The notes under the pieces: model-generated | What the model was told of the DNA's origin: nothing | Databases searched by the model: none | Seen by the model: the letters and a program-made list of their open reading frames with translations, nothing else | Shown here: one piece after another, positions 1 to 57,855 of the stretch | Position numbering within the stretch: the stretch's first letter is position 1 | Layout: the number at the start of each line of letters is the position of its first letter | Translations under genes and position numbers: made by a program | Source of the DNA: a virus | Length of the DNA: 64,000 nucleotides | Direction: 5' to 3' (one strand) | Virus record (IMG/VR): IMGVR_UViG_3300022745_000628 | Location: 64,001-128,000 of that record

Positions 1-2
1 CG

Positions 3-674: not shown

Positions 675-676
675 AA

Positions 677-1006
677 ATGGATAAATCGGATTCCGATCAA
701 GATCTCGAATCGGTCGAGTTGCTGCCAGCGTTCTACTGGATTTGTCAAGAATGCGGTAAAAATCAGTATCAGCATGCTATTCATGTTGAAATGTCGGCGG
801 AAGACATGCAAGAAGTGTTGGAAGATCTGGGAATCGATATAGCTGAGCAGTTAGGTAGTGGAGAATTTTTGAAGATCCCAACTATCGTAGAATGTAAGGA
901 TTGCTCCTCGCGTTTTAAAGTAACCTGCCCATTCGTTAAAGACGAACCAGATACGGAAGAAAATGACCAATCCGATGGATCTGCATTTGGGGACTTCTCC
1001 GAATAA
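677..1006 (+). CDS. Small acidic zinc-ribbon protein
   Basis: Two CxxC pairs (CQEC, CKDC); overlaps the RNAP gene start by 44 nt. Confidence 0.55.
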   Translation: MDKSDSDQDLESVELLPAFYWICQECGKNQYQHAIHVEMSAEDMQEVLEDLGIDIAEQLGSGEFLKIPTIVECKDCSSRFKVTCPFVKDEPDTEENDQSDGSAFGDFSE

Positions 1007-4000
1007 TAATCAACCGTCTGCATTAGACGGTTACGACGGATTAGAGTCGCAAGCACCGGATATTCCAGCTATATCTCCGGAAATTACCGAGAAAGACTTA
1101 CGCGAGTTTGCGCATCCGCAGCAATTGCGTGCCGCTATATATGACAAAACTCTAGCTGCCGCGCAAGCGATCCAGCCTGTGCAAAATAATCGGTACAAGT
1201 TATCTGTCACCGACGTACATTACGCGGATCCAGACCATTTTGATCTAACTAAACAAAAACAAGCGCTATTGTCCGGCGGATCTATTGGCCGAAGACTTCG
1301 CGGTACATGGGTACTAGAAGATGCAGCTGGAAACACTCTCGGAAGCAAAACAACGACTTTGGCACGTATTCCGCATTTGACTGACCGCGGTACGTTCATT
1401 AATAATGCCAACGAGTATTCACTAGTAAGCCAACTGCGGCTACGCCCAGGCATTTACACACGTAAAAAGGCTAACGGTGAAATAGAAGCACACGCTAACG
1501 TAACAAAAGGGCCTGGGCACAAGCTATTTCTAGATCCTAAGACCGGCGTATTCAAGCTAGGCATGCAACAATCCGAAATGCCAGTTGTTACGTTACTTAG
1601 GGCTATGGGTGTTAACGACGCGCAGTTGCGCGATGCTTGGGGTAACGAGCTAGCAGCCGCTAATATGCGCAAAGACGATGCGCAAGTCATTACTAAGCTG
1701 CACAAGAAGCTGGTACACAAGGTTGATCCTGACAAGTCGCCATCAGAGCAGGTAGTCGATGCTTTTCACCGTATGGAGCTGGATCCAGAAGTATCCGCGC
1801 GTACATTGGGACATCCGTACACCAATATGACGTCGGATGCGATACTGGCTACAACCAAAAAACTATTGGCTATTAGCCGTAATGAACAAGAAACGGACGA
1901 TCGCGATGCAATGCCGTTTCAAACATTGCACGGTCCGGAAGACTTATTGGCGGAGCGCTTGTCCAAATCACGCGGCACTATGAATAAGTTGCTGTGGAAA
2001 GCGTCAGCTAAAGGCGAGCTAGGTTCTGGTTTAAGCGGTGCTTTCGATGATGACGTTAAAAGTGCACTACTGACATCCGGGTTAGGTCAAGTGTTGGAGG
2101 AAGTTAACCTCGGTGAAGTGCTGGATCAGCAGAACCGGGTTTCGCGTATGGGTGAAGGTGGTATTACAAGCGGGGATTCGGTTCCTGAAGAGAGCCGTGC
2201 GCTCCATCCCTCACAATTCGGATTTATCGACATATTGCGTACTGCAGAAAGTTCGCGCGCAGGCGTCGATTTACGTCTAGCTAATTCTGTTCGAAAAGGG
2301 CCTAATAATACGCTGTATACCAAGGTTATTGATAGAGCAGGTAATCCTGTTTATCGTAAGCCTATTGCGATTGCCGATTCTGTTTTAGCATTTCCAGGTG
2401 AAATGGAGTCGGATACTCCATACGTTCGAGCCATTAAGAATGGCCGTGTAACTGTAGTAAAACGTGACGACGTGGATTACACAGTGCCGCATATGGAAGG
2501 CACCTTGTCACCTATGGCTAACCTCATTCCAGGCAAGTCAGCGGTTAAAGGTCAAAGACTAGTCATGGCATCTAGAATGATGCAACAAGCCTTACCGCTT
2601 AAAGAGCCTGAAGCGCCATTCGTACAATCTGCTAATCCAGATAAAGATGGCGAAAGCTTTGAAGAGACTTATTCTAAGTTCATGGGCGCAGTGAAAGCTG
2701 ACCAGCGTGGCCGAGTTATGGCTGTATCGCCAGACCATATTGAAGTTAAATACGCCGACGGCGATACTAAAAAAATTGAGCTGGCTAACAATTTCCCGCT
2801 TAATCGTAAGACTATGTACACGCAAACAGCTGCGGTACAACCCGGCGATTTTATACAGCCCGGTCAATTGCTGGCACATTCCAACTTTACAGACAAGCAG
2901 GGTGTTACAGCGTTAGGTAAAAACCTTCGTATAGCGTATATGCCATACGACGGGCGTAATTGGGAAGACGCGGTGGTTATCAGTGAATCGGCTGCTAAGA
3001 AGTTCACGTCTGAGCATGCTTATAAGCACGACCACGAGTTTACAGAGGCCGATAAGCCAGGCCGCGCGCGTTACATTAGTATCTTTCCAGGCAAGTACAA
3101 CAAAGAAACGCTAAGCAAATTTGATGAAAAAGGTGCTATTAAACCCGGTACTACGGTAAAAGCAGGCGATCCGCTGCTGCTTATGGTTTCTGAAAAAGAG
3201 CGCAATAAGAAATCTATGATTCGCGGCAATAAGTCTGTGTTTCAAGATAAGTCGATTCTGTGGGATCACGATTACGATGGACAAGTTACCGACGTAATTC
3301 ATACGCCTAAAGGTATGTCCGTAGTTGTTAAAGCTTATAAGCCCACGCAAGTAGGGGATAAACTTAGTCCCAGATATGGGGACAAAGGCATTATCAGTCA
3401 TATCGTTCCGGACGAACAGATGATACATGACGCTGATGGTAAACCATATGAGATGTTAGTTAGCCCGCTTGGCTTAACATCTCGTATTAATCCAATGCAG
3501 TACGTGGAAAACGCGCTAGGTAAAATTACCGAAAAAACAGGTAAAACCTACAAAATCAAGGATTTTGACGGTAACACAGACTTAGCGCAATATGCCGCAG
3601 ACGAGCTCAAAAAGCACGGGCTTTCTGACACTGAGACGGTGATCGATCCTAGAACCGGTAGAAAAATACCGGGCATTGTGACCGGCAATCGTTGGGTAAT
3701 GAAATTGCATCATATGGCTGCGGACAAGTTACAAGGTCGCGGACTGGGGTCTTACGATGCTACCGGCGCGCCAGCTGGTAAGACTGAAACATCCGACTCG
3801 AGTAAACGGCTTGGGATGTTAGAAGTTAATGCGATAATGTCTTCGGGCGCTACGAATGTCTTGCGAGAGGCGGGGCTATTGCGTGGGCAAGCTAATCCGC
3901 AATACTGGTCGGAATACATGTCCGGACTGGATCCTAAGACGCCAGAAGTCCCGTTTGTATACGACAAGTTTGTTAACATGCTGAAAGCAGCCGGGATTAA

Positions 4001-5444
4001 TCCAGTGCGGAATGGGCCTAAAACCCAGCTTATGGCACTGACAGATGCCGATATAGATAAGTTAGCTGGCAATCGAGAGCTCAAAAATGCTGAGACGGTT
4101 AACTGGAAAGACATGGCGCCGGTGGATGGCGGCTTATTTAGCCAAGATCTAACTGGTGGGCACGGATCCATAGGCGGCGGAGGCGGCTCGAGATGGAGCT
4201 ATATGTCTTTGCATACGCCTTTACCTAATCCTGTAATGGCTGAGCCAATTCGGCGTGTACTTGGTTTAACTAAACCGCAGTTTGAAAATATTATCGCTAG
4301 TAAGGATAGTATTAACGGCGAGACTGGCCCGCAGGCTATTCACAATGCGCTTAAGAAGATTGATGTGACGCGAGAACTTGCGCAAGTACGTGAGCAAATC
4401 AAATCTGGTAAAAAGACCAAGCGCGATGATGCAATTCGTAAAATCGGCTATCTAAAGACTGCTGAACGTTTGCAAATGCATCCGTCTGAATGGATGTTGA
4501 GTAAAGTGCCGGTTATACCGCCTATTTTCAGACCTGTGTCTGTAATGGGCTCGAAAAAACTACCGTTGGTAGACGACGCTAACTATTTGTACAAAGAACT
4601 GTGGGACGCTAACCAGACAGTTAAAAACCTGTCTAAGCATTTAGATCCTAAGGATTATGGCGATGAAATGTTGGCGACTTACAAAGCGTTCCAAGCTGTA
4701 ACGGGTTTAGGCGATCCGTTACAAGCCAAAAATAAAGAGCGCGGCGTTGCCGGCATATTAAAGCATGTACTCGGAGCTGGCGGCCCTAAGTCTAGTATGA
4801 TCCAGCGTAAGTTGCTTGGAAGTACTACTGACTTCGTTACGCGCGGTGTAATTGCACCAAACCCAGATTTACATATGGATCAGGTAGCGCTACCAGAAGA
4901 GCAAGCCTGGGATATGTACCAGCCGATGCTTGTTCGTCGAATGGTGCGTAGCGGTATGAGTAAGATGGATGCGTTGCGAGCTGTCGAGCAAAGACAACCG
5001 GTTGCTAAAAAAGCACTAGACAACGAACTCGAGGACGGCGTTGTGTTGTTCAATCGAGCTCCGACTTTGCACCGTTATGGCATTATGGCTGCAAAGCCGG
5101 TGCTGACTAAAAACAAAATTATCGAATTACCTACGTTCGTTTACGCTGGATTGGGCGCAGACAATGACGGTGATCAGATGAACATCCACGCTTTAACGAC
5201 ACAATCCGCTAAAGATGAAGCCATGGAAAAGATGTTGCCATCGAAGAATTTGTTCAATGTCAGCGAATTCAAGGTGCACCAGCTGCCATCCAAAGATTAT
5301 GTGGCTGGACTGTACGCTGCATCTACTGCACGAGACGACAAGAATCAGGTTATGTATTTTGATAGCCCAGAAGCTGCTATCAGAGCATATAAAGCTGGTC
5401 GAATCGATCTTGGTCGGCGTGTGAAAATATTAGATAAGAACTAA
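963..5444 (+). CDS. rpoBC: DNA-directed RNA polymerase, beta subunit fused to N-terminal half of beta'
   Basis: Beta motifs: GTFINNANEYSLVSQLRLRPG, RVSRMGEGGI, ALGKNLRIAYMPYDGRNWEDAVVISE, GDKLSPRYGDKGIIS, MKLHHMAADK, KRLGMLEV; then beta' motifs: GGLFSQ, KVPVIPPIFRP, RKLLGSTTDFVTRGVI, FNRAPTLHRYGI, catalytic GADNDGDQMNIH (5154-5174), PSKDYVAGLY. Confidence 0.95.
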   Translation: MTNPMDLHLGTSPNNNQPSALDGYDGLESQAPDIPAISPEITEKDLREFAHPQQLRAAIYDKTLAAAQAIQPVQNNRYKLSVTDVHYADPDHFDLTKQKQALLSGGSIGRRLRGTWVLEDAAGNTLGSKTTTLARIPHLTDRGTFINNANEYSLVSQLRLRPGIYTRKKANGEIEAHANVTKGPGHKLFLDPKTGVFKLGMQQSEMPVVTLLRAMGVNDAQLRDAWGNELAAANMRKDDAQVITKLHKKLVHKVDPDKSPSEQVVDAFHRMELDPEVSARTLGHPYTNMTSDAILATTKKLLAISRNEQETDDRDAMPFQTLHGPEDLLAERLSKSRGTMNKLLWKASAKGELGSGLSGAFDDDVKSALLTSGLGQVLEEVNLGEVLDQQNRVSRMGEGGITSGDSVPEESRALHPSQFGFIDILRTAESSRAGVDLRLANSVRKGPNNTLYTKVIDRAGNPVYRKPIAIADSVLAFPGEMESDTPYVRAIKNGRVTVVKRDDVDYTVPHMEGTLSPMANLIPGKSAVKGQRLVMASRMMQQALPLKEPEAPFVQSANPDKDGESFEETYSKFMGAVKADQRGRVMAVSPDHIEVKYADGDTKKIELANNFPLNRKTMYTQTAAVQPGDFIQPGQLLAHSNFTDKQGVTALGKNLRIAYMPYDGRNWEDAVVISESAAKKFTSEHAYKHDHEFTEADKPGRARYISIFPGKYNKETLSKFDEKGAIKPGTTVKAGDPLLLMVSEKERNKKSMIRGNKSVFQDKSILWDHDYDGQVTDVIHTPKGMSVVVKAYKPTQVGDKLSPRYGDKGIISHIVPDEQMIHDADGKPYEMLVSPLGLTSRINPMQYVENALGKITEKTGKTYKIKDFDGNTDLAQYAADELKKHGLSDTETVIDPRTGRKIPGIVTGNRWVMKLHHMAADKLQGRGLGSYDATGAPAGKTETSDSSKRLGMLEVNAIMSSGATNVLREAGLLRGQANPQYWSEYMSGLDPKTPEVPFVYDKFVNMLKAAGINPVRNGPKTQLMALTDADIDKLAGNRELKNAETVNWKDMAPVDGGLFSQDLTGGHGSIGGGGGSRWSYMSLHTPLPNPVMAEPIRRVLGLTKPQFENIIASKDSINGETGPQAIHNALKKIDVTRELAQVREQIKSGKKTKRDDAIRKIGYLKTAERLQMHPSEWMLSKVPVIPPIFRPVSVMGSKKLPLVDDANYLYKELWDANQTVKNLSKHLDPKDYGDEMLATYKAFQAVTGLGDPLQAKNKERGVAGILKHVLGAGGPKSSMIQRKLLGSTTDFVTRGVIAPNPDLHMDQVALPEEQAWDMYQPMLVRRMVRSGMSKMDALRAVEQRQPVAKKALDNELEDGVVLFNRAPTLHRYGIMAAKPVLTKNKIIELPTFVYAGLGADNDGDQMNIHALTTQSAKDEAMEKMLPSKNLFNVSEFKVHQLPSKDYVAGLYAASTARDDKNQVMYFDSPEAAIRAYKAGRIDLGRRVKILDKN

Positions 5445-5506
5445 TGCGACACAGCACCGGTTGTACAATTAAAACATCGCTTTCTTCTATTAGGATTTAA
5501 CTACGT

Positions 5507-6391
5507 ATGCCCAAACAAAACGGAACGTCTAATCTAATTTGGTCGTCTCGAGAGATCCCGGACGAAATATCCCAGCCAATCACCAGCGCAGCTGGGCATA
5601 TCGCAGAGGGTGTTAAAGATAATCTTGGACTAGGATTAGGTGCCGGCGGAGCGGCCGCGGTAGCCAATCAATTAGCTAATCGGGCGATGCCTAATATCGC
5701 TACGAGTAAGCCTGTAGTTGGGCCGGGTATGCTACGGGCCGCTGCCAAGATCGTTGGTCCGTGGCGCACACCGGCGGCAGGCGCTGCGGTTAGCTCGCTA
5801 ACGCACGGGCGATCTGCAATCGCTGGTATTCTCCAGAACTTGGCTAATGTAGCCAGCAGAGCAAAAACGCCGATACAAGCTGGAGCCGGTAATACATTAA
5901 AATGGTTAGGAGCCGGGGCTGTTGGCGGAGCCGGTTATGGCGCGTACAAAGGCTATCAAAACGCAGAGAAAGCAAGAACGGAAGCTATGGATACAATTCA
6001 AACTCGTCCTGTTGTTAAATGGAGCTCCGCGCGCGATTTCGGACGTCTGGCCGGTTATAAGCTCGCTGCTGACGTGACTGCTGATGCGCCGGCTGCTAAA
6101 GAGCGCCGACCGCTTAACCAGATTAACGGTAATGACATTGTTGGCGGTGCAACATTCGGGTGGCTAGGTAATCGGATTGGCGCACACGTGCCGGTACAGA
6201 ATCCTGCTGCCAGCTCGTATGCTTCGCAAGGTATGCACAGCAGTATTCCAAATATTGGCAAGATCCTTGCGTTAAACAGCAAACGTATGCCACCGGTGAC
6301 TAATGACCCTAAAGCCAAGTTAATCGGTACAATCTTAGGTGCTTTAGGCGGTGTCGGTGTATCCAAAGGGGTCGACGCCTTAGGCGGTTAA
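5507..6391 (+). CDS. Gly/Ala-zipper putative membrane-active virion protein
   Basis: Several GxxxG-rich hydrophobic stretches (GLGLGAGGAAA, GAGAVGGAGYGAY, IGTILGALGGVGV); YKLAA motif. Confidence 0.6.
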   Translation: MPKQNGTSNLIWSSREIPDEISQPITSAAGHIAEGVKDNLGLGLGAGGAAAVANQLANRAMPNIATSKPVVGPGMLRAAAKIVGPWRTPAAGAAVSSLTHGRSAIAGILQNLANVASRAKTPIQAGAGNTLKWLGAGAVGGAGYGAYKGYQNAEKARTEAMDTIQTRPVVKWSSARDFGRLAGYKLAADVTADAPAAKERRPLNQINGNDIVGGATFGWLGNRIGAHVPVQNPAASSYASQGMHSSIPNIGKILALNSKRMPPVTNDPKAKLIGTILGALGGVGVSKGVDALGG

Positions 6392-6410
6392 TTTTCGGAG
6401 CGATGTACAG

Positions 6411-6440
6411 TTGACGGATACCATACCAATTCGTAACAAT
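6411..6440 (+). promoter_or_regulatory. Sigma70-like promoter candidate for tnpB
   Basis: TTGACG (6411-6416), 17-nt spacer, TAACAAT (6434-6440); -10 match is weak. Confidence 0.35.
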
Positions 6441-6449
6441 TCATAACCA

Positions 6450-7625
6450 ATGTTAATTTCCAGACGTATTGAACTCGATCCAAACAACAAGCAGGTTGGT
6501 CTGTTCCGGCGGCACGCCGGTACAGCTAGGCACGCTTGGAACTGGGGTTTGGCCGAGATCAAGAAGGTCTTGGAAATCCGCAAGGTTGAAAAAGAGCGAA
6601 CTGGCAATGCTGTTACCAAAGTGCCCACCGCGATGGACTTGCACAAACGACTTGTTGCCGAAGTTAAAGTAGCAAACCCTTGGTATTACGATGTTTCGAA
6701 ATGTGCGCCGCAAGAAGCGTTACGCAACCTCGAAAAAGCGTGTAAACGCGTTTTCAAAGTTAAAGGTACTGGGTTTCCTAAATTCAAAAAGCGTGTCAGG
6801 CGTGCTGTATTTGAGTTGACTAATTCTACTTTCAGACGAGCTGGCAAGAAGATTAAGTTGCCGGTTATTGGCTGGATTCGTTGCAAAGAAGCCATCCCGG
6901 CTGACCACGTTATCAAATCAGTGTGTATTAACCAGCGAGCCAATCGTTGGTTTCTGGCTTACAGCTACGAAGTCGAAACCGTTGTCGCCAACGGTCATAC
7001 CGACACAGTAGGTGTCGATCTAGGGCTTAAAACCTTAGCGACATTGTCCAACTGCGAGACCATTGTTCAGCCAAAGCAGCTCAAGCTGCAAAAGAAACTA
7101 GTCAGGTTGCAGAGAAAGCTTGCCCGTCAAAAACGCGGCAGCAACCGACGTAACGTTACCAAGCAAAAGCTTGCAAACGTACATTATCGAATATCTTGTA
7201 TTCGAGCAGATCTAACGCACAAGTTAACTTCACGCTTAGCCAAAAACCACGGCGTAATTGCGATTGAAGACTTGAACGTTCAAGGAATGCTTAAAAACCA
7301 TTGTCTAGCCCGATCTATTGCCAACGCAAACTTTTCGGAGTTTCGAAGGCAGCTCGAATACAAGACTTTACTTTACGGTTCGCAACTCGTTGTTGTCGAC
7401 CGTTGGTTCCCGAGCTCAAAGACTTGTCATGTCTGCCAACATAAGCAGGAAATGCCTTTGTCTAAAAGGGTATTTTGTTGCGAACAATGCGGACAAACGT
7501 CTGACCGGGATTTGAACGCGGCCAAGAACCTAGCAGCGGCCGGCTTGGCCGTTTTAGCGCAAAGAACCCGCAGAGTGGGATCGCTTTGCGAACTAACCAA
7601 AGACGCTACTTGTAGCGTTTTGTAA
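6450..7625 (+). CDS. tnpB: RNA-guided endonuclease TnpB (IS607-like)
   Basis: N-terminal HTH-like IELDPNNKQ..AGTARHAWNWGL; RuvC-I GVDLG, RuvC-II IEDL, zinc finger CHVC/CEQC, RuvC-III DRDLNAAKNL; catalytic D/E/D intact. Confidence 0.92.
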   Translation: MLISRRIELDPNNKQVGLFRRHAGTARHAWNWGLAEIKKVLEIRKVEKERTGNAVTKVPTAMDLHKRLVAEVKVANPWYYDVSKCAPQEALRNLEKACKRVFKVKGTGFPKFKKRVRRAVFELTNSTFRRAGKKIKLPVIGWIRCKEAIPADHVIKSVCINQRANRWFLAYSYEVETVVANGHTDTVGVDLGLKTLATLSNCETIVQPKQLKLQKKLVRLQRKLARQKRGSNRRNVTKQKLANVHYRISCIRADLTHKLTSRLAKNHGVIAIEDLNVQGMLKNHCLARSIANANFSEFRRQLEYKTLLYGSQLVVVDRWFPSSKTCHVCQHKQEMPLSKRVFCCEQCGQTSDRDLNAAKNLAAAGLAVLAQRTRRVGSLCELTKDATCSVL

Positions 7626-7639
7626 GTATTAGAAAGCAG
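7558..7639 (+). ncRNA. 3' part of putative TnpB omega/reRNA scaffold
   Basis: Two hairpins overlapping the tnpB 3' end: CGCAAAG/CTTTGCG (7558-7590) and AAGACGCTA-CTTG-TAGCGTTTT (7600-7621); 5' extent unknown. Confidence 0.45.
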
Positions 7640-7650
7640 CGAATTGATTT

Positions 7651-8304
7651 ATGAACGAAGTATTGATGAAATTGGCGCAACGCCGTATTTGGAGTGACGC
7701 TGTCGCTCAAAGTAAAACGGCTGTTGTCGGGCCCGGTGGCCCGCCTCCTATGGCACAACCACCTATGGACCCGTCCCAAGGTGGAGTTGCGCCACCAATG
7801 GATCCATCTCAAATGGGTGGAGCTCCGCCCATGGGTATGCCTGCGCCTCCAGCTGGAGCCGGTATGCCAGATCCGATGCAAGCGCCGGCTATGGCGCAGC
7901 AACCGGCTCCGACTCCCGCACCAGTAAAACAAAAGGCAGAAGATTGGTTGCCAAAGCTTGATACCAGGCTTTACAACCTACAGCAACAACTTTCGGCGAT
8001 TATGCAAGCTGTTGGCGCTCAGCTGCCAACCGATGCAATCATCTTGCCGCCTGGCGCATCAAATCCACCTATGGAAGCCGCTATGCCACAACCAGGGCCG
8101 CCGCAGCCGCCAGCAGACCCTGCGGCAGCGGGAATGCCTCCTGGCGCCGATCCTTCGGCTATGGCTGGTGATCCTTCGGCCATGATGGCGGACCCATCAG
8201 CAATGGCTAAGCAAAGCTCTATCTCGGATATCATCCGTAGTTCCGACAAAGCAAGTGCAGCTCAAGCGCTTGCTTTATTGCTGCGTAGACCGGTTACAGC
8301 TTAA
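7651..8304 (+). CDS. Pro/Met/Ala-rich low-complexity protein, putative head core/scaffold-like
   Basis: PPMDPSQ and DPSAM repeats flanking a short helical segment (LDTRLYNLQQQLSAIMQAVG). Confidence 0.65.
   Translation: MNEVLMKLAQRRIWSDAVAQSKTAVVGPGGPPPMAQPPMDPSQGGVAPPMDPSQMGGAPPMGMPAPPAGAGMPDPMQAPAMAQQPAPTPAPVKQKAEDWLPKLDTRLYNLQQQLSAIMQAVGAQLPTDAIILPPGASNPPMEAAMPQPGPPQPPADPAAAGMPPGADPSAMAGDPSAMMADPSAMAKQSSISDIIRSSDKASAAQALALLLRRPVTA
8149..8211 (+). repeat. 3 x 21-nt coding tandem repeat (DPSAMAG/DPSAMMA/DPSAMAK)
   Basis: gatccttcggctatggctggt / gatccttcggccatgatggcg / gacccatcagcaatggctaag. Confidence 0.8.
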
Positions 8305-8335
8305 GGCACACAGCAGTAACTATTACGCGCATGAG

Positions 8336-8371
8336 ATCCACATTGTATAAACACAGTGTGGATTTTTTTTT
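8336..8371 (+). terminator. Intrinsic terminator
   Basis: ATCCACATTGT-loop-ACAGTGTGGAT stem followed by a T-run. Confidence 0.75.
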
Positions 8372-8388
8372 ATTAGTCAGGAAACGCT

Positions 8389-8631
8389 ATGCTTGTCGAA
8401 TCTCATAATAAATTGGCGAATATCCAGAAATTTGCAGCTACGCGCGTAGTGATTTACGACGATTTCAATAATCCTATCGCGTTAGCCGTACAGCTTGATT
8501 CTGGTACGTATGTCACTAGTACGCTAGGGCAACCAGACTTTGCCGCATTACTGCAGAATTGTGGTGTACAATCAACCACGGTTATTACAGAGGTAGCACA
8601 CGTACCTCGTAGCCAGTTGAAATTCCAATAA
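8389..8631 (+). CDS. Hypothetical protein
   Basis: 80-aa ORF with upstream AGGA, same strand and spacing as neighbours. Confidence 0.55.
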   Translation: MLVESHNKLANIQKFAATRVVIYDDFNNPIALAVQLDSGTYVTSTLGQPDFAALLQNCGVQSTTVITEVAHVPRSQLKFQ

Positions 8632-8650
8632 CCTGATACAGGAGCAACTA

Positions 8651-8941
8651 ATGTCAGGATCAGCAATGCTGGATCAAATCAGCGAGATTATGCAACTTAC
8701 CAAGGAAGTTGCCGTGTTAAAGACTCAGGTGTCCGAGCTACAACAGGCGGTTACCGGGCTTGTGGAAGTGATGAACGACACGGCTGCGCGGACTAGCGTG
8801 TTTATGCTTACCAATTCTCAAATAATGCTGCGAAAAGGTGTTTGTACCGAAGCAGAGTGGGTGCACGTGCTGGAAGAAAGTAAGGTAGCCGTAGAGGAAG
8901 AGCAAGCTAGTGCCGCTGCAATAGCTGCCGAAGGCGCCTAA
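8651..8941 (+). CDS. Hypothetical coiled-coil protein
   Basis: 96-aa ORF with upstream AGGAG; heptad-like pattern. Confidence 0.6.
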   Translation: MSGSAMLDQISEIMQLTKEVAVLKTQVSELQQAVTGLVEVMNDTAARTSVFMLTNSQIMLRKGVCTEAEWVHVLEESKVAVEEEQASAAAIAAEGA

Positions 8942-8972
8942 TCCGACAACCGTTGTAACGTAAAATAGTTAC

Positions 8973-11822
8973 ATGTCGCAAGAATTAACTGTCGGGCAAT
9001 TATTAATCGATCAGGCACTACCGCCGTCTATGCGCGGAGTGCCGCGGACGCTAGACGCCAAAGGCGTTAGCGCATTATTCCAGGAATTGGCTGAGCAACA
9101 TCCCGATGCATACCGCGATATAGGTAAAAAGATATCGGATATCGGCAGAGATGCCGCTACCATATCCGGTGGCTTCACAAGCGGTATCGCGCACTTGCAG
9201 CAACCAGAAGCAGCTAAACGAATTCGTAAAGAATTCGATGCTAAACTTCAAGCAATATATGCGCAGCATCTTTCAGAAGATGAGAGAAATAAGCAAGTTA
9301 TTGCACTTGCCGGCACTACGCAACAACAAATGGCGGAAGAAGTATATCAAGAAGCGCTAGCAAATAAAAACCCGATTGCGTTACAAGCAATGACTGGCGT
9401 ACGCGGTAATAAGATGAACGTAAACAGTCTGTTAGGCGCAGACATGTTGTACGCAGACCATAAAAATCAGCCTATTCCCTTGCCGGTTACTAGAAGTTAT
9501 TCCATGGGGTTAACCCCTGCTGAATACATGGCTGGCGCATTCGGAGCGCGAAAAGGGACGGTAGATTTGAAGCTAAGTACCTCTAAAGCCGGGTTTCTTT
9601 GTTTAGATGCAGACACATTAGTGCGTATGGCAGATTTTTCTGTCAAAAAGATCTGTGATATATCTGCCGGTGACATGGTTATGGGGGCAGATTTAAAAGG
9701 TAATTGCTTCCCGAGCCATGTAATCGCGTTGATCGATACAGGTGTAAAACCAGTAAATCGATATGATTTTCGTTATGGAAAATCCAGATCCAAATTTATA
9801 TCGATCACTGGCACTGCTGAACATAAGGTATTAGCACGTAAAAGTACTAGGACAAGATCTAAGAAAGTTCGAGTGTATCCGGACGCAAGCAGGGAAATGG
9901 CTGAGTTAGGTTTATTTGGTAATACCGGCACTACCAAATGTGAATTAGTCGTAGCGCCTCTTGGCGAAGATATGCCGCTAGTAAACTGTGCCTTTCAAAT
10001 GGCCACACCGCTAGAACCAGCACAAACTTACGACATTTGCGTGGATAATCCGGATCATTTGTTTGTGTTGGCTAATGGCGCTATTGTTAGCAACTCCAAA
10101 CAATTGAACCAGATATCCCATCGATTAGTTGTTACAGATACAGACGGCGAAGCTCACGACCCCGAAAATCCGCGCGGTATGCCCGTAGACACGGATAACA
10201 AGTTTAACGCTGGTTCGTTGCTTGCCCACGATGTAGCTGGCTACAAACGAAACCAAATACTCACGCCCAAGATTTTGAAAGATATCAAATCGCAGGGACA
10301 CGACTCTATCTTGGTGCGCAGCCCTATTGTGGGCGGCCCAAAAGATGGCGGAGTTTACGCTTATGACGCCGGCGTGCGAGAACGCGGCGGATTGCCCCCA
10401 ATAGGCGACTTTGTGGGTTTAGCCGGAGCACAGTCAATCGGTGAAATCGCGACGCAAGCGTCTATATCCAGTAAGCACTGCTTAATGGGTGGAACTCTAG
10501 TACGAATGGCCGATTTGTCTGTAAAAGCTATAGAAGACATACGAGTTGGCGACCAGGTGTTAGGCGCCGACATGTTTGGAAAGAGCACGCCAGTCAAAGT
10601 AGTTAACACATTCGACAACGGAGAGCGTGAATGTTCGCAGTTCAAATATCAAAAAGGTGCTTCGGCTATCGAGCTATGCAGTACCGCTGAACACAAAATA
10701 TTAGTCGTTACACCGTACGGTAATGAATTATTGGCTGCCGGGGTGGAGCAAGATCCATTATTTGTAAAACTAGCGGATAGTGATGAAATTTGTGTACAAG
10801 ACTACTCCGTACCGTTAGGAATGCAGCCTACATACGATATTGAAGTAGATCACCCGGATCACTTATTTGTGTTGGCAAACGGATTAATAGTTAGCAATTC
10901 CGGCGGGGTTGTCGGAGCGCAAGCTGGGGCACTAACCGGGTTCCCGTTGTTTAACGCTTTAATACAGGTTCCGGAAGTATTCCCAGGTGGCGCAACGCAT
11001 GCCCAAAACGACGGGCGTGTGACGGATATTCGCCCAGCTCCGCAAGGCGGAACATTTGTAATGGTGGATGGACAAGAACACCATGTGCACAGCAACTTGA
11101 AACCTACGGTTAATCTCCGTGATATGGTTGAAGCTGGTGACGTATTGTCCGAAGGATTGCCTAGCCCCGCAGAATTTGTCAAACATAAAGGTGTAGGCGA
11201 AGGCCGCCGGCAGTTTGTTACGGCATTTTCAAAGGCGCTACAAGAAGCAGGTGCTAAACATAATCGGCGAAATGTCGAGTTGTTAGCGCGCGGAGCTATA
11301 AACCACGTCCGCCTAACTGACGAATACGGTAATTTTTCTCCTGGCGAAGTACATCCGTATCAAACACTTGAAGCTATGTGGGAGCCTAGGGCTGGGTACA
11401 TAGCCGTAAGTCCGGAATCTAGTAAGAATTACTATCTAGAAAAACCGGTATTACATTACACAATCGGCACAAAGATTAAGCCGTCGATGATTGCCGAAAT
11501 GAAGAAGTACGGGGTTAAGCGCGTAATAGCCCACTCGGAGCCGCCTCCGTTTGAACCAGAAATGATTCGAGGTATGGCGTCGGTATCAGAAGATCCAGAC
11601 TGGATGACCAATATGTTCGGATCTTATCAAAAATCCAGCTTGTTAGACGCCGTGCACAATTCAAGAGAATCTGATGAATCCGGTACCAGTTACATACCAG
11701 CGCTAGCGCATGGTAAAACGTTCGGGATCTCTGGAGCAACAAAAGGTTGGAATCCAAAGGAATCGCCGATTAAACCGCCGGATTTTACACAACCGAAAAC
11801 TGTGTTAGACGATTGGGACTGA
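8973..11822 (+). CDS. rpoC: RNA polymerase beta' C-terminal half with two inteins
   Basis: LTVGQLL, NPIALQAMTGVRG, SYSMGLTPAEY..AFGARKGTVDLKLSTSKAGFL (bridge helix), AQSIGEIATQASISSKH (trigger loop), LTGFPLF, RRNVELLAR; 644 aa after removal of both inteins. Confidence 0.92.
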   Translation: MSQELTVGQLLIDQALPPSMRGVPRTLDAKGVSALFQELAEQHPDAYRDIGKKISDIGRDAATISGGFTSGIAHLQQPEAAKRIRKEFDAKLQAIYAQHLSEDERNKQVIALAGTTQQQMAEEVYQEALANKNPIALQAMTGVRGNKMNVNSLLGADMLYADHKNQPIPLPVTRSYSMGLTPAEYMAGAFGARKGTVDLKLSTSKAGFLCLDADTLVRMADFSVKKICDISAGDMVMGADLKGNCFPSHVIALIDTGVKPVNRYDFRYGKSRSKFISITGTAEHKVLARKSTRTRSKKVRVYPDASREMAELGLFGNTGTTKCELVVAPLGEDMPLVNCAFQMATPLEPAQTYDICVDNPDHLFVLANGAIVSNSKQLNQISHRLVVTDTDGEAHDPENPRGMPVDTDNKFNAGSLLAHDVAGYKRNQILTPKILKDIKSQGHDSILVRSPIVGGPKDGGVYAYDAGVRERGGLPPIGDFVGLAGAQSIGEIATQASISSKHCLMGGTLVRMADLSVKAIEDIRVGDQVLGADMFGKSTPVKVVNTFDNGERECSQFKYQKGASAIELCSTAEHKILVVTPYGNELLAAGVEQDPLFVKLADSDEICVQDYSVPLGMQPTYDIEVDHPDHLFVLANGLIVSNSGGVVGAQAGALTGFPLFNALIQVPEVFPGGATHAQNDGRVTDIRPAPQGGTFVMVDGQEHHVHSNLKPTVNLRDMVEAGDVLSEGLPSPAEFVKHKGVGEGRRQFVTAFSKALQEAGAKHNRRNVELLARGAINHVRLTDEYGNFSPGEVHPYQTLEAMWEPRAGYIAVSPESSKNYYLEKPVLHYTIGTKIKPSMIAEMKKYGVKRVIAHSEPPPFEPEMIRGMASVSEDPDWMTNMFGSYQKSSLLDAVHNSRESDESGTSYIPALAHGKTFGISGATKGWNPKESPIKPPDFTQPKTVLDDWD
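9600..10094 (+). mobile_element. Mini-intein 1 (165 aa) in the bridge helix
   Basis: Starts CLDADTLVRMAD, block B TAEHK, ends HLFVLANGAIVSN; +1 extein residue Ser; flanks AGFL/SKQL align to SGYL/TRRL. Confidence 0.9.
10479..10898 (+). mobile_element. Mini-intein 2 (140 aa) in the trigger loop
   Basis: Starts CLMGGTLVRMAD, TAEHK, ends HLFVLANGLIVSN; +1 Ser; flanks SSKH/SGG align to RTFH/IGG. Confidence 0.9.
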
Positions 11823-11927
11823 TCCACGCTAGGTGTGCAAGCCTTAAGTTTAAGCCGCATTTTTATTGTTAAGATGCGGTAAACTATAAAAAGGTACATC
11901 TCACATTTTTACCGCAGAACAAATACG

Positions 11928-14177
11928 ATGCCCCTTCAAAAGAAACTGGCGTTCAACCTAAATACCAATGGTAATACCGGGTTTGAACAATCCTTCGCAA
12001 ACCTGGCTCATGCGTACCTGAAAGATGCTGCTCCTAGTCTGATGGACCATGAGCTGGGTTTTCAATTACTGGACACCAACGAAGAAAACACTCGCGCAGT
12101 CGGTGTTTTTGGATTCATGGTGGGCTCTCAGGTGCTATACGCACCGGTATTTTTCTTAAACGGCGACTTGAAAGGTAACGAGCTACTGTACGTTAAGTCC
12201 AATGATATGTTCACGCCGCTGAAAGAAGGCTGGCTGCAATATATTATGAACCGTAAGCCTCAATCGCTGGGAGAGCCTGGAGACCCGTCGTCTATTAATC
12301 CGTCAATCCGTCGACCGGATTTGAGTCAGTTCTATCAAACACCTGGAAAAATCGCTAGCCACGTAGCAGACTTCGCTATTGAGTTCTTGCCAAGCTACGC
12401 AGCGATCACGACAGCTGAATTTGCGAAAGAAGCTGAGGATCTTCGCGGGCTGATATCTGAGAAGTTCAATCTCGATCGATTTATGAAGTCGGCGAGCTCA
12501 GACGATCTTAAAGTGCTTTGTGACACACTGGAATCAAATTCGACGATTGCCGGACGATTCGCCGAATGGTACGGTTTTGACAAGTTGGCGGAAGCTGTCA
12601 AGCGTGCTAAGCAAGACGAGACCCAGCCATCGGCGTTGGATTTGCCAGATATTTCCAATCCAGACCTGTTCTTCGAACCAAGCAAATTGGATGTCTATTT
12701 GGACGTAGACAGCATGCCTGGCGACGCAACGGATCCAGAAAAGGAATATTTCTACTCTCATAACATATTGGTACGAGATAACCGTAAAGTTGAAGAGCAC
12801 GCCAAAGTTCTGGACGAAAGTTCGGATATCAAACTGAGCAATCCAAACTCTACCGGTAAATACCAAGTTCTGGATAAAACTGGCTTGACCGTAGAACGCG
12901 TTGTGCTCAGCCGACCGATCGGACCTAACTCGGTTACTGAAAAGGTGGCTATCCTCGATCCAAGCGGCGACGTACGCTTGGTCTTTAAGCGCGACGCGGT
13001 GTTTGTGGTTAACGATGGAAAAGACGCTCAGAAGGCATTTTCAGACTGGTGGGCCACTGTCGGTTCTAACAGCGTAGATCGTAACAGTACGTATATTGCC
13101 GTTACAAAAGACGGCGTATCTAGCATTCCGTTTGTTATCGAGCGTTCGCTCGGCAAGGCTGCCGACGGCTCGTCTGCTTATGAGATCTCGTTCAAAGGTT
13201 CGGAATCCTGGGATACCTACGACAGCTCTACAAAAAGCAAGGATGGTCAGCGATTTGTAAGTAACAATTCTCGAGAGTACCTGTATATCGGCTCGAAAGC
13301 CGATTCCAAGCTGCACGTACATGAAGGATCGATATACGCGCCGGCGCAAGCTAAATTCATTAAAGTTGATCCGTATCCTGACAGCGATGCGTTTGTACCT
13401 GGCGATATTCACGACGCGCAACGACGATTGCAGCGTGGAACTATCAAGGTGAAAGCTACCCGCGACGCAAATCGTTATGCCATCGACGGACAAGAAATGG
13501 TTTCCAAACAAGCTGCACTTAAGACTTTGGTGCTTAAGTACCGCTTAGGATTTGATTCGGCTAAAGATGTATTGTCCAAGTTGGCTACCGCGGCTCCGAG
13601 AGCTAACTATGCTTTCCGGATCAAACTAGCTGATCCGATGTTGACCGATAACGCGCAACATTCGTTTGGCGTGGACTTTACCCCGCAAACTGACCGTAGC
13701 ACGAACTTCATGAATTTCCAAGGTAGTATGGCTCCGTCCAGCGAGCAGCGCAGCACAATTTCAGAATTGTCCGGTGCCAACTCGGATTTGTCCGGATACA
13801 ACATTTTGACAGAAGGTCGCAACGCAGTTAAGAGCTACGTGCAAAATGCTGCGGATCGTGGAGATAAAGACATATTCGATGTCGGTATGCTATCGTCGTT
13901 GCTTAAGGCAGTTAAGGATGACATGATCATCGATCAATACATCCCAGACCTGATGAAAGCAATGGATAAACTCGGCCGGCTGTTATTCCAATATTATTGG
14001 CATTACGACAAGTTTTCGGCGAGGTTCGGCAAGTCAGATATGCCAGAATTGGAAGACGCTTTGCGTAACAGTTTCGAAATGTTGTCGGAAGTTATACTGT
14101 TCTTGAAGAACAAGACAATCGATCCGTACGCTGAAAACGACACTCCAGACATTTCCCTTAACACATCGGCTGCTTAA
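11928..14177 (+). CDS. Large head-module protein of unknown function
   Basis: 749-aa ORF, first gene of the head cluster; at least 7 K-x-A motifs. Confidence 0.7.
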   Translation: MPLQKKLAFNLNTNGNTGFEQSFANLAHAYLKDAAPSLMDHELGFQLLDTNEENTRAVGVFGFMVGSQVLYAPVFFLNGDLKGNELLYVKSNDMFTPLKEGWLQYIMNRKPQSLGEPGDPSSINPSIRRPDLSQFYQTPGKIASHVADFAIEFLPSYAAITTAEFAKEAEDLRGLISEKFNLDRFMKSASSDDLKVLCDTLESNSTIAGRFAEWYGFDKLAEAVKRAKQDETQPSALDLPDISNPDLFFEPSKLDVYLDVDSMPGDATDPEKEYFYSHNILVRDNRKVEEHAKVLDESSDIKLSNPNSTGKYQVLDKTGLTVERVVLSRPIGPNSVTEKVAILDPSGDVRLVFKRDAVFVVNDGKDAQKAFSDWWATVGSNSVDRNSTYIAVTKDGVSSIPFVIERSLGKAADGSSAYEISFKGSESWDTYDSSTKSKDGQRFVSNNSREYLYIGSKADSKLHVHEGSIYAPAQAKFIKVDPYPDSDAFVPGDIHDAQRRLQRGTIKVKATRDANRYAIDGQEMVSKQAALKTLVLKYRLGFDSAKDVLSKLATAAPRANYAFRIKLADPMLTDNAQHSFGVDFTPQTDRSTNFMNFQGSMAPSSEQRSTISELSGANSDLSGYNILTEGRNAVKSYVQNAADRGDKDIFDVGMLSSLLKAVKDDMIIDQYIPDLMKAMDKLGRLLFQYYWHYDKFSARFGKSDMPELEDALRNSFEMLSEVILFLKNKTIDPYAENDTPDISLNTSAA

Positions 14178-57079: not shown

Positions 57080-57855
57080 TGGCAATTCCGGATTACATCG
57101 ATAAAACACTGCCTTTGGCTAGTGGCGGGCGCGCAGCTCAAACCGAGCCGTTTATCAGCGAATACAACGCCTGGAAAGCGGATCGTACACCTACCACCAC
57201 CGGAGCTTTGTTACAGGCCGTTAATCCGTTACTTACCAGTATGGCCGCGCGCTACGACGACAGCCCTAATTTAAAAGGGCAGGCTAAGTTGCTGGCTTTA
57301 AATGCTTTTGATACTTACGATCCTGCAAAAGGCACACTTCGTAACCATCTAATTTCGCATTTATCCGGCTTACAGCGCCAGTCAGCTAAAAATGACCAGA
57401 TTATCTCCATACCCGAGCGGATCGTAATAGATCAGAGTAACTTACGTAACGCCGAAAAAGAACTATCGGACGAGCTCGGTCGGGATCCTACCGATATAGA
57501 GTTAGCTAATCACAGCGGAGTGCCGCTGAAACGCATAGGGTATATTCGCAAAGCACGTCACGCGATTAACAGCAGTCGGTTTGTCGATGAGGCCGGCGAA
57601 CAGTATTCCCCTGCGTCCGCTATTCCTGAAAATAACGCTATGGCGGATGTTTGGCAAAATATCGTGTATCACGATCTGAGCCCGACGGACCAGCTTATTA
57701 TGGAACACAGCTTGGGATTGCGCGGTAAACCTGTTTTAGAAAACCGCGCGTTAGCTTCTAAGCTAGGAATTAGCGCAGGCGCGGTTAGCCAGCGGAAAGC
57801 TAAGATTCAACAGGCCTTGGATGAGCGGTTCCAACACACGGTATTTGGTGAATAA
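57079..57855 (+). CDS. RNA polymerase sigma factor, sigma-70 family (group 3, FliA/SigF-like architecture)
   Basis: Region 2 AFDTYDPAKGTLRNHL, IPER; region 3 ELSDELGRDPTDIELA; region 4 LSPTDQLIM..LASKLGISAGAVSQR. Confidence 0.8.
   Translation: MAIPDYIDKTLPLASGGRAAQTEPFISEYNAWKADRTPTTTGALLQAVNPLLTSMAARYDDSPNLKGQAKLLALNAFDTYDPAKGTLRNHLISHLSGLQRQSAKNDQIISIPERIVIDQSNLRNAEKELSDELGRDPTDIELANHSGVPLKRIGYIRKARHAINSSRFVDEAGEQYSPASAIPENNAMADVWQNIVYHDLSPTDQLIMEHSLGLRGKPVLENRALASKLGISAGAVSQRKAKIQQALDERFQHTVFGE

What the first reader, a model, noticed from the sequence alone, without database searches (positions are those of the whole stretch)
963..11822. Phage-encoded bacterial-type RNA polymerase re-cut as beta::beta'-N plus a separate beta'-C, embedded among head genes
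Seen: one 1493-aa ORF runs through all beta motifs and directly (junction about 3940-4150) into beta' as far as the catalytic loop and PSKDY..GLY; the rest of beta' (TVGQ, bridge helix, trigger loop) is a separate gene 3.5 kb downstream. Known: full beta-beta' fusions occur in Helicobacter and Wolbachia, and a beta' split occurs in cyanobacteria/plastids (rpoC1/rpoC2), where the TTxGR segment stays with the N-half; here it starts the C-half. phiKZ/AR9 polymerases are split differently and are far more divergent. Inference: fusion plus split in one enzyme is an unusual architecture, and its location among K-x-A and Gly-zipper virion genes suggests a packaged or late-dedicated polymerase. No alpha subunit was recognised in the window.
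Basis: partly seen in the sequence, partly recalled or inferred. Interest (0 to 1): 0.8.

Follow-up and report, generated by a model that had tools for sequence, protein, structure and literature searches.

The report
Two-chain phage RNA polymerase with inteins
A 194-kb uncultured phage encodes its only RNA polymerase as two oddly cut chains (all of beta joined to the front of beta-prime, the back of beta-prime separate). Hundreds of related phages share this layout, but no paper I could search describes it, and here the second chain also carries two self-splicing inteins in the enzyme's two moving catalytic parts.

Summary
ORF 963-5444 (1493 aa) is a complete beta subunit that runs, with almost no linker (aa ~1018/1020), into beta-prime as far as just past the catalytic barrel. 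ORF 8973-11822 holds the rest of beta-prime.

- The second ORF is a 949-aa precursor with two mini-inteins, one in the bridge helix and one directly after the trigger-loop His. Removing them leaves a 644-aa chain.
- Both beta-prime zinc sites are gone, and the mature enzyme has no cysteine.
- A TnpB gene sits between the two polymerase genes.

The genome has no alpha or omega and a single sigma-like gene (57079-57855).

The fusion-plus-split is not peculiar to this phage. It is continuous across the junction in 79 of 80 IMG/VR loci examined, 70 of them have a separate beta-prime-C 0.9-6 kb downstream, and it occurs in the cultured phages Arash (Salmonella) and D69 (Vibrio). In Arash the two chains and sigma are abundant in virion preparations. 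I therefore read this as a sigma-dependent polymerase without alpha that is probably carried in the virion.

"Among head genes" is only partly right.

No searchable paper describes the layout. This scan has already met it on other genomes. Only the TnpB insertion (0 of 80 relatives) is special to this window.

The parts
963..5444 (+). Chain 1: complete beta (aa 1-1018) fused directly to beta-prime-N (aa 1020-1493, about E. coli beta-prime 18-554). Contains no cysteine.
   Evidence: Pfam; PDB phmmer; E. coli mapping; Cys count 0; AF2 model of aa 801-1493 best matches cyanobacterial gamma, plastid RpoC1 and bacterial beta-prime.
4017..4019 (+). Beta to beta-prime junction (between aa 1018 and 1020): effectively no linker.
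   Evidence: Motif positions; pLDDT below 50 at model residues 217-220, i.e. ORF1 1017-1020; junction conserved in the family consensus.
4155..4190 (+). 12-aa Gly-rich loop in place of the four-Cys N-terminal zinc-binding domain of beta-prime.
   Evidence: No Cys in aa 950-1200; low pLDDT at model residues 270-273; a Cys-free loop is also the family consensus.
5154..5174 (+). Catalytic Mg loop GADNDGD (family consensus GADFDGD).
5507..6391 (+). 294-aa Gly/Ala-rich protein; not found in relatives.
   Evidence: No Pfam or PHROG hit; 0 of 80 loci.
6450..7625 (+). TnpB (IS200/IS605-type RNA-guided nuclease gene). Single copy, no TnpA. An insertion specific to this genome.
   Evidence: Pfam HTH_OrfB_IS605 + OrfB_IS605 + Cas12f1-like TNB; PHROG 506, E 3e-109; single copy; absent from L008, L009 and 80 of 80 IMG/VR loci.
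7651..8304 (+). Conserved 217-aa Pro/Gly-rich protein with one conserved helix. Part of the polymerase cassette; function unknown.
   Evidence: 90 homologs; consensus; syntenic in L008 and L009; detected in 44 of 80 loci.
8333..8366 (+). Terminator-like hairpin (14-bp stem plus T-run) between the two polymerase genes.
8389..8631 (+). Conserved 80-aa protein of the cassette; function unknown; no omega-like signal.
   Evidence: Synteny; detected in 38 of 80 loci; profile against PDB gives nothing.
8973..11822 (+). Chain 2 precursor (949 aa): beta-prime-C (about E. coli beta-prime 588 to the end) interrupted by two mini-inteins. The mature extein is 644 aa, has no Cys, and lacks the second zinc site.
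   Evidence: Pfam Rpb1_5 + Hint; alignment to Arash and D69; the extein with inteins removed in silico aligns as one stretch to E. coli 710-945; Cys count.
9600..10094 (+). Mini-intein 1 (165 aa) in the bridge helix, between the equivalents of E. coli beta-prime L796 and T797.
   Evidence: absent in L008 and L009; at this site 44 of 45 insertions start with Cys and 43 of 45 end SN|S.
10479..10898 (+). Mini-intein 2 (140 aa) in the trigger loop, directly after the equivalent of E. coli beta-prime H936.
   Evidence: absent in L009 and present in L008; at this site 64 of 70 insertions start with Cys and 65 of 70 end SN|S.
11928..14177 (+). Strongly conserved 749-aa protein that follows beta-prime-C throughout the clade; function unknown.
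   Evidence: detected in 63 of 80 loci; no fold or sequence match.
57079..57855 (+). The only sigma-like gene of the genome, next to baseplate genes; homolog of the virion-detected Arash Gp10.
   Evidence: tblastn with Arash gp10; Pfam Sigma70_r3 above cutoff plus a weak r4 in the right order.

Best explanation
This is the only RNA polymerase of a ~194-kb tailed phage: a bacterial-type two-barrel enzyme built from two chains. SHOWN BY SEQUENCE: chain 1 is a whole beta joined without a linker to beta-prime-N, up to just past the catalytic barrel. Chain 2 is the rest of beta-prime. It is made as a precursor whose bridge helix and trigger loop are each interrupted by a mini-inteIN of one family, with Cys1, a T-x-x-H block B, a terminal Asn and a +1 Ser. 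Both beta-prime zinc sites are deleted, and the two mature chains contain no cysteine. The genome has no alpha or omega and one sigma-like gene. A TnpB element has landed between the two genes in this genome only. INFERRED: (1) both inteins must splice before the enzyme can work, because each cuts a catalytic moving part; they are selfish passengers that have lost their homing endonuclease. (2) The covalent beta-to-beta-prime-N link takes over the job of the alpha dimer, which in cells holds beta and beta-prime together. This is feasible because the beta C-terminus and the beta-prime N-terminus lie next to each other in all bacterial RNAP structures (established knowledge; natural fusions exist in Helicobacter and Wolbachia). 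(3) The phage sigma directs the core to phage promoters. (4) By homology with Salmonella phage Arash, core and sigma are packed into the virion and injected to transcribe early genes without the host polymerase.
For: Domain content and mapping. Fold of the junction segment. Inteins: Hint Pfam hits; exact boundaries and 39% mutual identity; the extein with inteins removed aligns as one stretch through bridge helix and trigger loop; empty-site alleles in L009 and a one-intein allele in L008; the same sites carry 130-190-aa or about 380-400-aa LAGLIDADG versions with Cys1 and SN|S in over 90% of cases. Zinc sites and cysteines; median 0 Cys in 92 fused homologs. No alpha or omega. Sigma. Conservation of the layout: 109 of 120 best homologs span beta plus beta-prime-N; 197 IMG/VR contigs encode a relative; 79 of the 80 kept are continuous across the junction; 70 of 80 have a complete separate beta-prime-C 907-5955 nt downstream; Arash and D69 have the same layout at 30% identity. 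Virion association in a relative: Arash Gp206 has the most spectra of any protein (3516), Gp216 is fifth (1210), and sigma Gp10 has 100% coverage (PMC10585845).
Against: There are no expression, splicing or virion data for this phage. The Arash 'virion' list has 116 proteins, including ribonucleotide reductases, and its authors themselves allow for carry-over of abundant infection proteins. The penultimate intein residue is Ser, not the canonical His. Sigma region 2 is not detected by Pfam. A strong terminator-like hairpin separates the two polymerase genes, so their co-expression is not guaranteed. Use of host alpha and omega cannot be excluded from sequence. The record is estimated 93% complete, so absence of alpha and omega is strong but not absolute. 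The conserved 217-aa, 80-aa and 749-aa cassette proteins have unknown roles and could be extra subunits.
Confidence: 0.75

Rival explanations
1. The same enzyme, but not packaged: it is made after infection and serves middle or late transcription, as the phiKZ non-virion polymerase does. Its presence in Arash preparations would then be carry-over.
For: The Arash authors raise this possibility, and their list includes metabolic enzymes. In this genome the genes sit at the head of a long same-strand block that runs into structural (late) genes.
Against: Gp206 ranks first in spectra, above the major capsid protein, though it is also a very long protein. There is only one polymerase set in the genome, so if the phage is independent of the host RNAP, the enzyme must be present at time zero.
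Confidence: 0.2
2. The two phage chains assemble on the host's alpha dimer (and omega), giving a chimeric core. The fusion would then not replace alpha.
For: The enzyme is much closer to bacterial RNAP (27-30% identity, clear Pfam hits) than phiKZ-type enzymes are, so alpha-contact surfaces might survive.
Against: phiKZ and AR9 polymerases work without alpha or omega (PMC7598289; PMC13282480). The clade infects hosts as far apart as Salmonella and Vibrio, possibly also Planctomycetota, with only 30% identity between branches, and no host-specific alpha dependence is evident. A packaged enzyme would have to carry alpha along.
Confidence: 0.15
3. The two insertions in the second chain are lineage-specific domains that stay in the protein (like E. 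coli SI3), or they make the gene non-functional.
For: SI3 sits only six residues downstream of the trigger-loop site in E. coli. The penultimate residue is not His.
Against: Hint Pfam hits; Cys1, block B, Asn and +1 Ser at both; relatives with clean empty sites; the same sites hold LAGLIDADG-bearing versions. An unspliced insert in the middle of the bridge helix would be incompatible with catalysis, yet this is the phage's only beta-prime-C.
Confidence: 0.03
4. The locus is a misassembled or captured host rpoBC locus.
For: None beyond the bacterial-type domains.
Against: The same record carries terminase, portal and baseplate genes. The best cellular identities are only 25-30% and are spread evenly over phyla. 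Hundreds of viral contigs share the exact layout.
Confidence: 0.01

Closest known systems
RNA polymerase of Salmonella phage Arash (Gp206 1525 aa + Gp216 606 aa + sigma Gp10; OQ632216; PMC10585845) and of Vibrio phages D69/D148/D181
   Same: Fused beta::beta-prime-N gene (30% identity over 97% of the length), a separate beta-prime-C a few kb downstream, and a homologous sigma. The N-terminal zinc domain is absent.
   Different: Arash and D69 keep the four Cys of the second zinc site, have no inteins in beta-prime-C, and have the portal gene just upstream. The paper annotates the genes simply as beta and beta-prime and does not mention the fusion.
Cyanobacterial and plastid split of beta-prime (gamma/RpoC1 + RpoC2)
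   Same: Beta-prime is cut after the catalytic barrel. The model of chain 1's C-terminal part matches gamma and RpoC1 best.
   Different: The cut is offset: chain 1 ends about 65 residues before gamma ends, and chain 2 starts about 18 residues before RpoC2 starts. About 25-45 residues of the intervening hairpin are missing. Beta is not fused in cyanobacteria, and alpha and omega are present there.
Natural beta-beta-prime fusions of Helicobacter and Wolbachia (own knowledge; not tested here)
   Same: The beta C-terminus is joined to the beta-prime N-terminus.
   Different: Those fuse the whole of beta-prime, keep alpha, omega and the zinc sites, and are cellular.
phiKZ/AR9-type jumbo-phage multisubunit RNAPs (PMC7598289, PMC7824862)
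   Same: Phage-encoded, no alpha or omega, beta-prime split after the barrel, and a virion-packaged version exists.
   Different: Their beta is split into 2-3 pieces and not fused. They have two polymerase sets and no recognisable sigma homolog, and they are far more divergent from cellular enzymes.
mReC phages (Weinheimer & Aylward 2020, PMC7481178)
   Same: Large uncultured tailed phages with a deep-branching, bacterial-like beta and beta-prime.
   Different: In their table, beta (about 900-1520 aa) and beta-prime (about 900-1390 aa) are separate neighbouring proteins, and an NADxDGD motif in a beta-prime hit of at least 800 aa was required. This enzyme would fail both criteria.
Inteins in RNAP large subunits of archaea and in RPB2-type genes of eukaryotes and giant viruses (PMC1635734; own knowledge for the archaeal ones)
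   Same: Self-splicing inteins lodged in conserved catalytic regions of a multisubunit RNAP.
   Different: Here the host is a phage enzyme of bacterial type. One intein family has spread over several sites of one gene (at least four in beta-prime-C), with a Ser-Asn C-terminus.

Membership tests
Bacterial-type multisubunit (two-barrel) RNA polymerase core | Beta barrel with the two active-site lysines (GDK...GDKG) | tested here: met
   GDK at aa 798 and 806; conserved in the family consensus; Rpb2_6 E 3e-54.
Bacterial-type multisubunit (two-barrel) RNA polymerase core | Beta-prime barrel with the D-x-D-x-D Mg loop | tested here: met
   GADNDGD at aa 1398-1404.
Bacterial-type multisubunit (two-barrel) RNA polymerase core | Bridge helix and trigger loop | tested here: met
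   Present and contiguous only after removing the two inteins in silico; then aligned to E. coli beta-prime 710-945, E 1.4e-21.
Bacterial-type multisubunit (two-barrel) RNA polymerase core | Alpha dimer and omega subunits | tested here: not met
   PF01000, PF01193, PF03118 and PF01192 find nothing in the 194-kb record at E <= 1, while the controls ring. The 217-aa and 80-aa cassette proteins do not look like alpha or omega.
Bacterial-type multisubunit (two-barrel) RNA polymerase core | Two beta-prime zinc sites | tested here: not met
   Zero Cys in chain 1 and in the chain 2 extein; site 1 is replaced by a Gly loop; the site 2 positions are non-Cys.
Bacterial-type multisubunit (two-barrel) RNA polymerase core | Sigma-70-family initiation factor | tested here: inconclusive
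   One gene has region 3 above the cutoff and a weak region 4. Region 2 is not detected. It is homologous to the Arash 'sigma' Gp10.
Arash-type two-chain phage RNAP (informal clade) | Single ORF spanning beta and beta-prime-N, a separate beta-prime-C downstream on the same strand, and a phage sigma | tested here: met
Arash-type two-chain phage RNAP (informal clade) | Presence in virions | not testable with these tools
   Known only for Arash.
mReC phage RNAP (PMC7481178) | Separate beta and beta-prime genes; NADxDGD in a beta-prime of at least 800 aa | tested here: not met
   Searches compared.
phiKZ/AR9-type phage RNAP | Beta split into two or three chains; no sigma homolog; two enzyme sets | tested here: not met
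   Beta is whole and fused; one Rpb2_6 locus in the genome; a sigma-like gene is present.
Class 1 intein (HINT fold) | Hint domain; Cys/Ser at position 1; T-x-x-H block B; C-terminal Asn; Cys/Ser/Thr at +1 | tested here: met
   Pfam Hint E 8.5e-13 with two stretches; both begin with Cys, contain T-A-E-H and end Asn|Ser.
Class 1 intein (HINT fold) | Penultimate His | tested here: not met
   Ser-Asn in both, and in over 90% of family members at these sites. Inteins without this His are known (own knowledge), so this lowers certainty about splicing only slightly.
Class 1 intein (HINT fold) | Intein-free alleles of the same host gene | tested here: met
   L009 631 aa has none and L008 804 aa has one; 68 of 70 IMG/VR beta-prime-C genes are about 560-640 aa.
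Class 1 intein (HINT fold) | Protein splicing activity | not testable with these tools
   Needs expression.
IS200/IS605-family TnpB | HTH + OrfB_IS605 (RuvC) + zinc-ribbon TNB domains | tested here: met
   PHROG 506. Candidate D, E and D residues were seen by eye in the translation.
IS200/IS605-family TnpB | Element ends, omega RNA and TnpA | tested here: inconclusive
   No Rfam hit in 1-16000; no TnpA; only 58 nt and 25 nt of flanking intergenic DNA.

The most novel reading that the evidence does not exclude
A very large, world-wide clade of ~150-230-kb phages, which includes cultured Salmonella and Vibrio phages, carries in its virions a minimal bacterial-type RNA polymerase that is free of cysteine and zinc. 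It is made of just two chains plus a sigma. The covalent beta-to-beta-prime-N link replaces the universal alpha-dimer assembly platform, and the loss of Cys and Zn is an adaptation to passing through the capsid and tail. This would be a third, undescribed design of phage multisubunit RNAP beside the phiKZ and crAss types, and the one closest to the cellular enzyme.
Probability: 0.5. Interest if true: 0.75.

Novelty: new variant of a known kind. Interest (0 to 1): 0.6.

Why it matters
All cellular RNA polymerases need an alpha-type dimer to bring the two large subunits together. An enzyme that is clearly bacterial in sequence and pairs with a sigma, yet works as two chains without alpha, omega, zinc or cysteine, would show how little of the core is needed. 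It would also be a compact, sigma-programmable polymerase for structural and synthetic work. Because cultured members exist (Arash, Vibrio D69), the predictions can be tested at the bench now. The inteins add a second point: one intein family repeatedly targets the bridge helix and trigger loop, the most conserved moving parts of the enzyme. That is a clear example of selfish elements sheltering in indispensable sequence, and it makes enzyme activity depend on protein splicing.

Tried and rejected
(1) Alpha-like role for the conserved 217-aa protein: its family consensus is Pro/Gly-rich low complexity with one helix, and the ESM Atlas model is unusable. Rejected.
(2) Omega-like role for the 80-aa protein: a profile against PDB sequences gives only noise, and the pattern looks strand-rich. 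No support.
(3) The Zn-ribbon ORF 677-1006 as a stand-in, in trans, for the lost zinc domain: it is not conserved in Arash, D69 or L007-L009. Rejected.
(4) Function of the 749-aa partner: no Pfam or PHROG hit, nothing from the Atlas, AF2 pLDDT 69, Foldseek against PDB with nothing at E <= 0.001, the viral library giving only an uncharacterised phage protein, VIA wide search best Z 5.5 on helical hairpins, and profile against PDB with nothing. Left unknown.
(5) Membership in mReC: rejected from the authors' own table.
(6) The 'moraphage' paper (PMC12619734): those phages have no RNAP.
(7) Rfam scan for an omega RNA or other RNA in 1-16000: nothing.
(8) Single-protein scan of IMG/VR with the junction segment found nothing; the alignment-based scan was needed.
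(9) The first estimate of intein frequency (97 of 120) was biased because the query itself contained inteins. The sample not selected on inteins gives 2 of 70.
(10) No phylogeny was built. The deep position rests on even 25-30% identity to all bacterial phyla among PDB hits and is not rigorous.


Full report
SOURCE AND OBSERVATION. The window is bases 64001-128000 of a 193.8-kb IMG/VR viral record estimated 93% complete. ORF 963-5444 (+, 1493 aa) carries Pfam Rpb2_3 and Rpb2_6 (beta) followed in the same frame by Rpb1_1 and Rpb1_2 (beta-prime N-terminal half). ORF 8973-11822 (+, 949 aa) carries Rpb1_5. Against E. coli, ORF1 aa 130-1013 align to beta 121-1336 and aa 1102-1489 to beta-prime 160-550. 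The solved-structure search gives the same picture for every bacterial phylum, at E 1e-59 to 1e-42.

THE JUNCTION. The beta C-terminal motif ends at aa 1018 (nt 4016) and the recognisable beta-prime N-terminus begins at aa 1020 (nt 4020), so there is essentially no linker. The four-Cys zinc-binding domain of beta-prime is replaced by a 12-residue Gly-rich loop (aa 1065-1076), and there is no Cys anywhere between aa 950 and 1200. Both features are in the family consensus. An AlphaFold2 model of aa 801-1493 (mean pLDDT 71.7) has low confidence exactly at the junction and at the Gly loop. Its best structural matches are cyanobacterial gamma, plastid RpoC1 and bacterial beta-prime (E ~1e-28). The catalytic loop reads GADNDGD with three Asp (the family mostly has GADFDGD), and the two beta lysine motifs are present.

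THE SPLIT. ORF1 ends at about E. coli beta-prime 554, which is about residue 560 of the 624-626-aa cyanobacterial gamma. ORF2 residue 4 aligns to actinobacterial beta-prime 660-665, and ORF2 residue 51 aligns to residue 33 of cyanobacterial RpoC2. The cut therefore lies in the same post-barrel surface region as the cyanobacterial and phiKZ-type cuts (PMC7598289), but it is offset.

Aligned with Arash Gp216 (606 aa) and D69 gp264 (609 aa), ORF2 has two extra blocks. Block 1 is aa 210-374 (nt 9600-10094, 165 aa) and block 2 is aa 503-642 (nt 10479-10898, 140 aa). Each begins with Cys, contains a T-x-x-H block, and ends Ser-Asn followed by Ser. They are 39% identical to each other, and Pfam Hint matches with two stretches. 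Block 1 sits between the equivalents of E. coli beta-prime L796 and T797 in the bridge helix. Block 2 sits directly after the equivalent of H936 in the trigger loop. With both removed, the 644-aa sequence aligns as one uninterrupted stretch to E. coli 710-945. A relative whose fused subunit is 59% identical (L009) has a 631-aa beta-prime-C lacking both, and one at 65% (L008) has only the trigger-loop one. Among intein-bearing homologs, 44 of 45 insertions at the bridge-helix site and 64 of 70 at the trigger-loop site start with Cys, and 43 of 45 and 65 of 70 end SN|S. Sizes are either 130-190 aa or about 380-400 aa with LAGLIDADG domains, and two further nearby sites are used. These are therefore mini-inteins of one homing family that have lost the endonuclease. 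In a sample not selected through the intein, only 2 of 70 beta-prime-C genes carry an insertion, against about 20% of fused genes, so a double-intein C-half is uncommon. The non-canonical penultimate Ser is a family trait.

NO ZINC, NO CYSTEINE, NO ALPHA OR OMEGA, ONE SIGMA. The second zinc site is also gone: the positions of E. coli C814, C888, C895 and C898 are non-Cys. ORF1 and the ORF2 extein contain no cysteine at all, and all ten Cys of the precursor lie in the inteins. Ninety-two intein-free fused homologs have a median of 0 Cys, whereas Arash and D69 keep the four Cys of site 2. Pfam models for the alpha insert domain, the alpha dimerisation domain, alpha-CTD and omega find nothing in the whole record while ringing in the control genomes. 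There is one Rpb2_6 locus, so there is a single polymerase set. The only sigma-like gene is ORF 57079-57855. It has region 3 above the cutoff, a weak region 4 in the right order, and no region 2 hit. It is homologous to Arash Gp10 and lies beside a Baseplate_J gene.

SURROUNDINGS. Between the two polymerase genes lie the following:
- a 294-aa Gly/Ala-rich ORF with no relatives;
- a TnpB gene (6450-7625; Pfam HTH_OrfB_IS605 + OrfB_IS605 + TNB; PHROG 506; single copy; no TnpA; no Rfam hit nearby);
- a conserved 217-aa Pro/Gly-rich protein;
- a strong terminator-like hairpin (8333-8366);
- a conserved 80-aa protein;
- a 96-aa ORF.
A strongly conserved 749-aa protein follows beta-prime-C. In 80 IMG/VR loci the typical gap between the polymerase genes is about 1 kb. 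The 217-aa, 80-aa and 749-aa proteins are detectable in 44, 38 and 63 loci. TnpB, the 294-aa ORF and the 96-aa ORF are detectable in none. The core cassette is thus: fused gene, 217-aa gene, 80-aa gene, beta-prime-C, 749-aa gene; TnpB is a private insertion. None of the three cassette proteins could be assigned a function. The portal homolog that precedes the polymerase in Arash and D69 lies about 115 kb away here, and the terminase homolog about 80 kb away. According to earlier notes of this scan, which I did not check, capsid and sheath genes begin about 10 kb downstream. 'Among head genes' is therefore only loosely true.

HOW COMMON, AND IS IT KNOWN? The 120 best database homologs of the junction-containing part are at least 52% identical. 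Of these, 109 span beta and beta-prime-N, and many lie on ~200-kb contigs. In IMG/VR, 197 contigs encode a relative. Of the 80 kept, 79 are continuous across the junction (L090 is stretched by an insertion, and L078 is cut short by the contig end). Seventy have a complete separate beta-prime-C 907-5955 nt downstream. In six no beta-prime-C was found because the contig ends within 2.2 kb, and four gave only partial matches. The cultured phages Arash, D69, D148 and D181 share the layout at 30% identity, so the fusion and the split predate the divergence of these branches. The only GTDB hit is a relic fragment on a contig binned as Pirellula. The Arash paper calls the genes beta and beta-prime without noting the fusion, and reports both, with sigma, among the most abundant proteins of virion preparations. 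The mReC phages of Weinheimer and Aylward have separate beta and beta-prime, and their filter would have excluded this enzyme. Reviews of jumbo-phage polymerases describe only the phiKZ/AR9 type. Seven full-text searches found no description of this layout or of inteins in a phage bacterial-type beta-prime. This scan's own earlier notes show the same layout, and even twin bridge-helix and trigger-loop mini-inteins, on other genomes. Those are unchecked AI notes that agree with what I found independently.

MECHANISM. Shown: the anatomy above. Inferred:
- The inteins must splice, since each interrupts a catalytic element of the phage's only beta-prime-C.
- The covalent link substitutes for the alpha platform. 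The two termini are adjacent in bacterial RNAP, and natural and engineered fusions are functional (established knowledge).
- The phage sigma supplies promoter specificity.
- The enzyme is packaged, by analogy with Arash.
Rivals are a non-packaged middle/late enzyme (0.2), assembly on host alpha (0.15), permanent insertions or a dead gene (0.03), and host contamination (0.01).

VERDICT. This is a real, conserved variant of the phage multisubunit RNA polymerase that I could not find described in any paper. The window adds two mini-inteins and a private TnpB insertion. It is interesting to transcription and phage specialists and directly testable in cultured relatives. It is not unique to this genome.

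Noticed in passing
window 6450-7625: Intact-looking TnpB (RNA-guided nuclease family) inserted between the two polymerase genes, on the same strand, with only 58 nt and 25 nt of flanking spacer. Single copy in the genome, and absent from 80 of 80 related loci. No omega RNA or element ends were identified.
   Followed up: partly
window 11928-14177: 749-aa protein with dozens of invariant residues that always follows beta-prime-C in this clade (also Vibrio D69 gp266, 22% identity). No family, fold or solved-structure match. A candidate for an unknown polymerase partner or a virion protein.
   Followed up: partly
window 7651-8304 and 8389-8631: Two small conserved genes sit between the polymerase genes in most relatives. 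One is a Pro/Gly-rich protein with short repeats and one conserved helix. The other is an 80-aa protein that looks strand-rich. Their roles are unknown.
   Followed up: partly
window 8333-8366: A 14-bp-stem, T-tailed terminator-like hairpin between the two polymerase genes, suggesting they may lie in different transcription units.
   Followed up: no
window 677-1006: 109-aa acidic ORF with two CxxC pairs (weak zinc-ribbon hit) that overlaps the start of the fused polymerase gene by 44 nt. Not conserved in relatives.
   Followed up: yes
L010 (JANPHB010000342.1, contig binned as a Pirellula MAG) 5944-8898: A relic of the fused gene (matching aa 937-1403 only) followed by a LAGLIDADG ORF, next to a tyrosine integrase and AAA_21/DUF4435 defence-like genes. 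A possible host hint (Planctomycetota), or a captured fragment.
   Followed up: partly
L002 (Arash) and L003 (D69), beta-prime-C genes: The Arash/D69 branch keeps the four cysteines of the second beta-prime zinc site, whereas the window's branch has none. Zinc-site loss therefore happened stepwise within the clade.
   Followed up: partly
OZ196140.1 / OZ196545.1 (Vibrio phages D181, D148): In these isolates the match to the fused gene comes in two pieces, with an annotated homing endonuclease and four 'hypothetical protein' calls under it. The gene is interrupted there by another mobile element.
   Followed up: no
window, gene starts at 963, 5507, 6450, 8973, 11928: Most genes in this block lack a recognisable Shine-Dalgarno sequence upstream of the start codon.
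   Followed up: no
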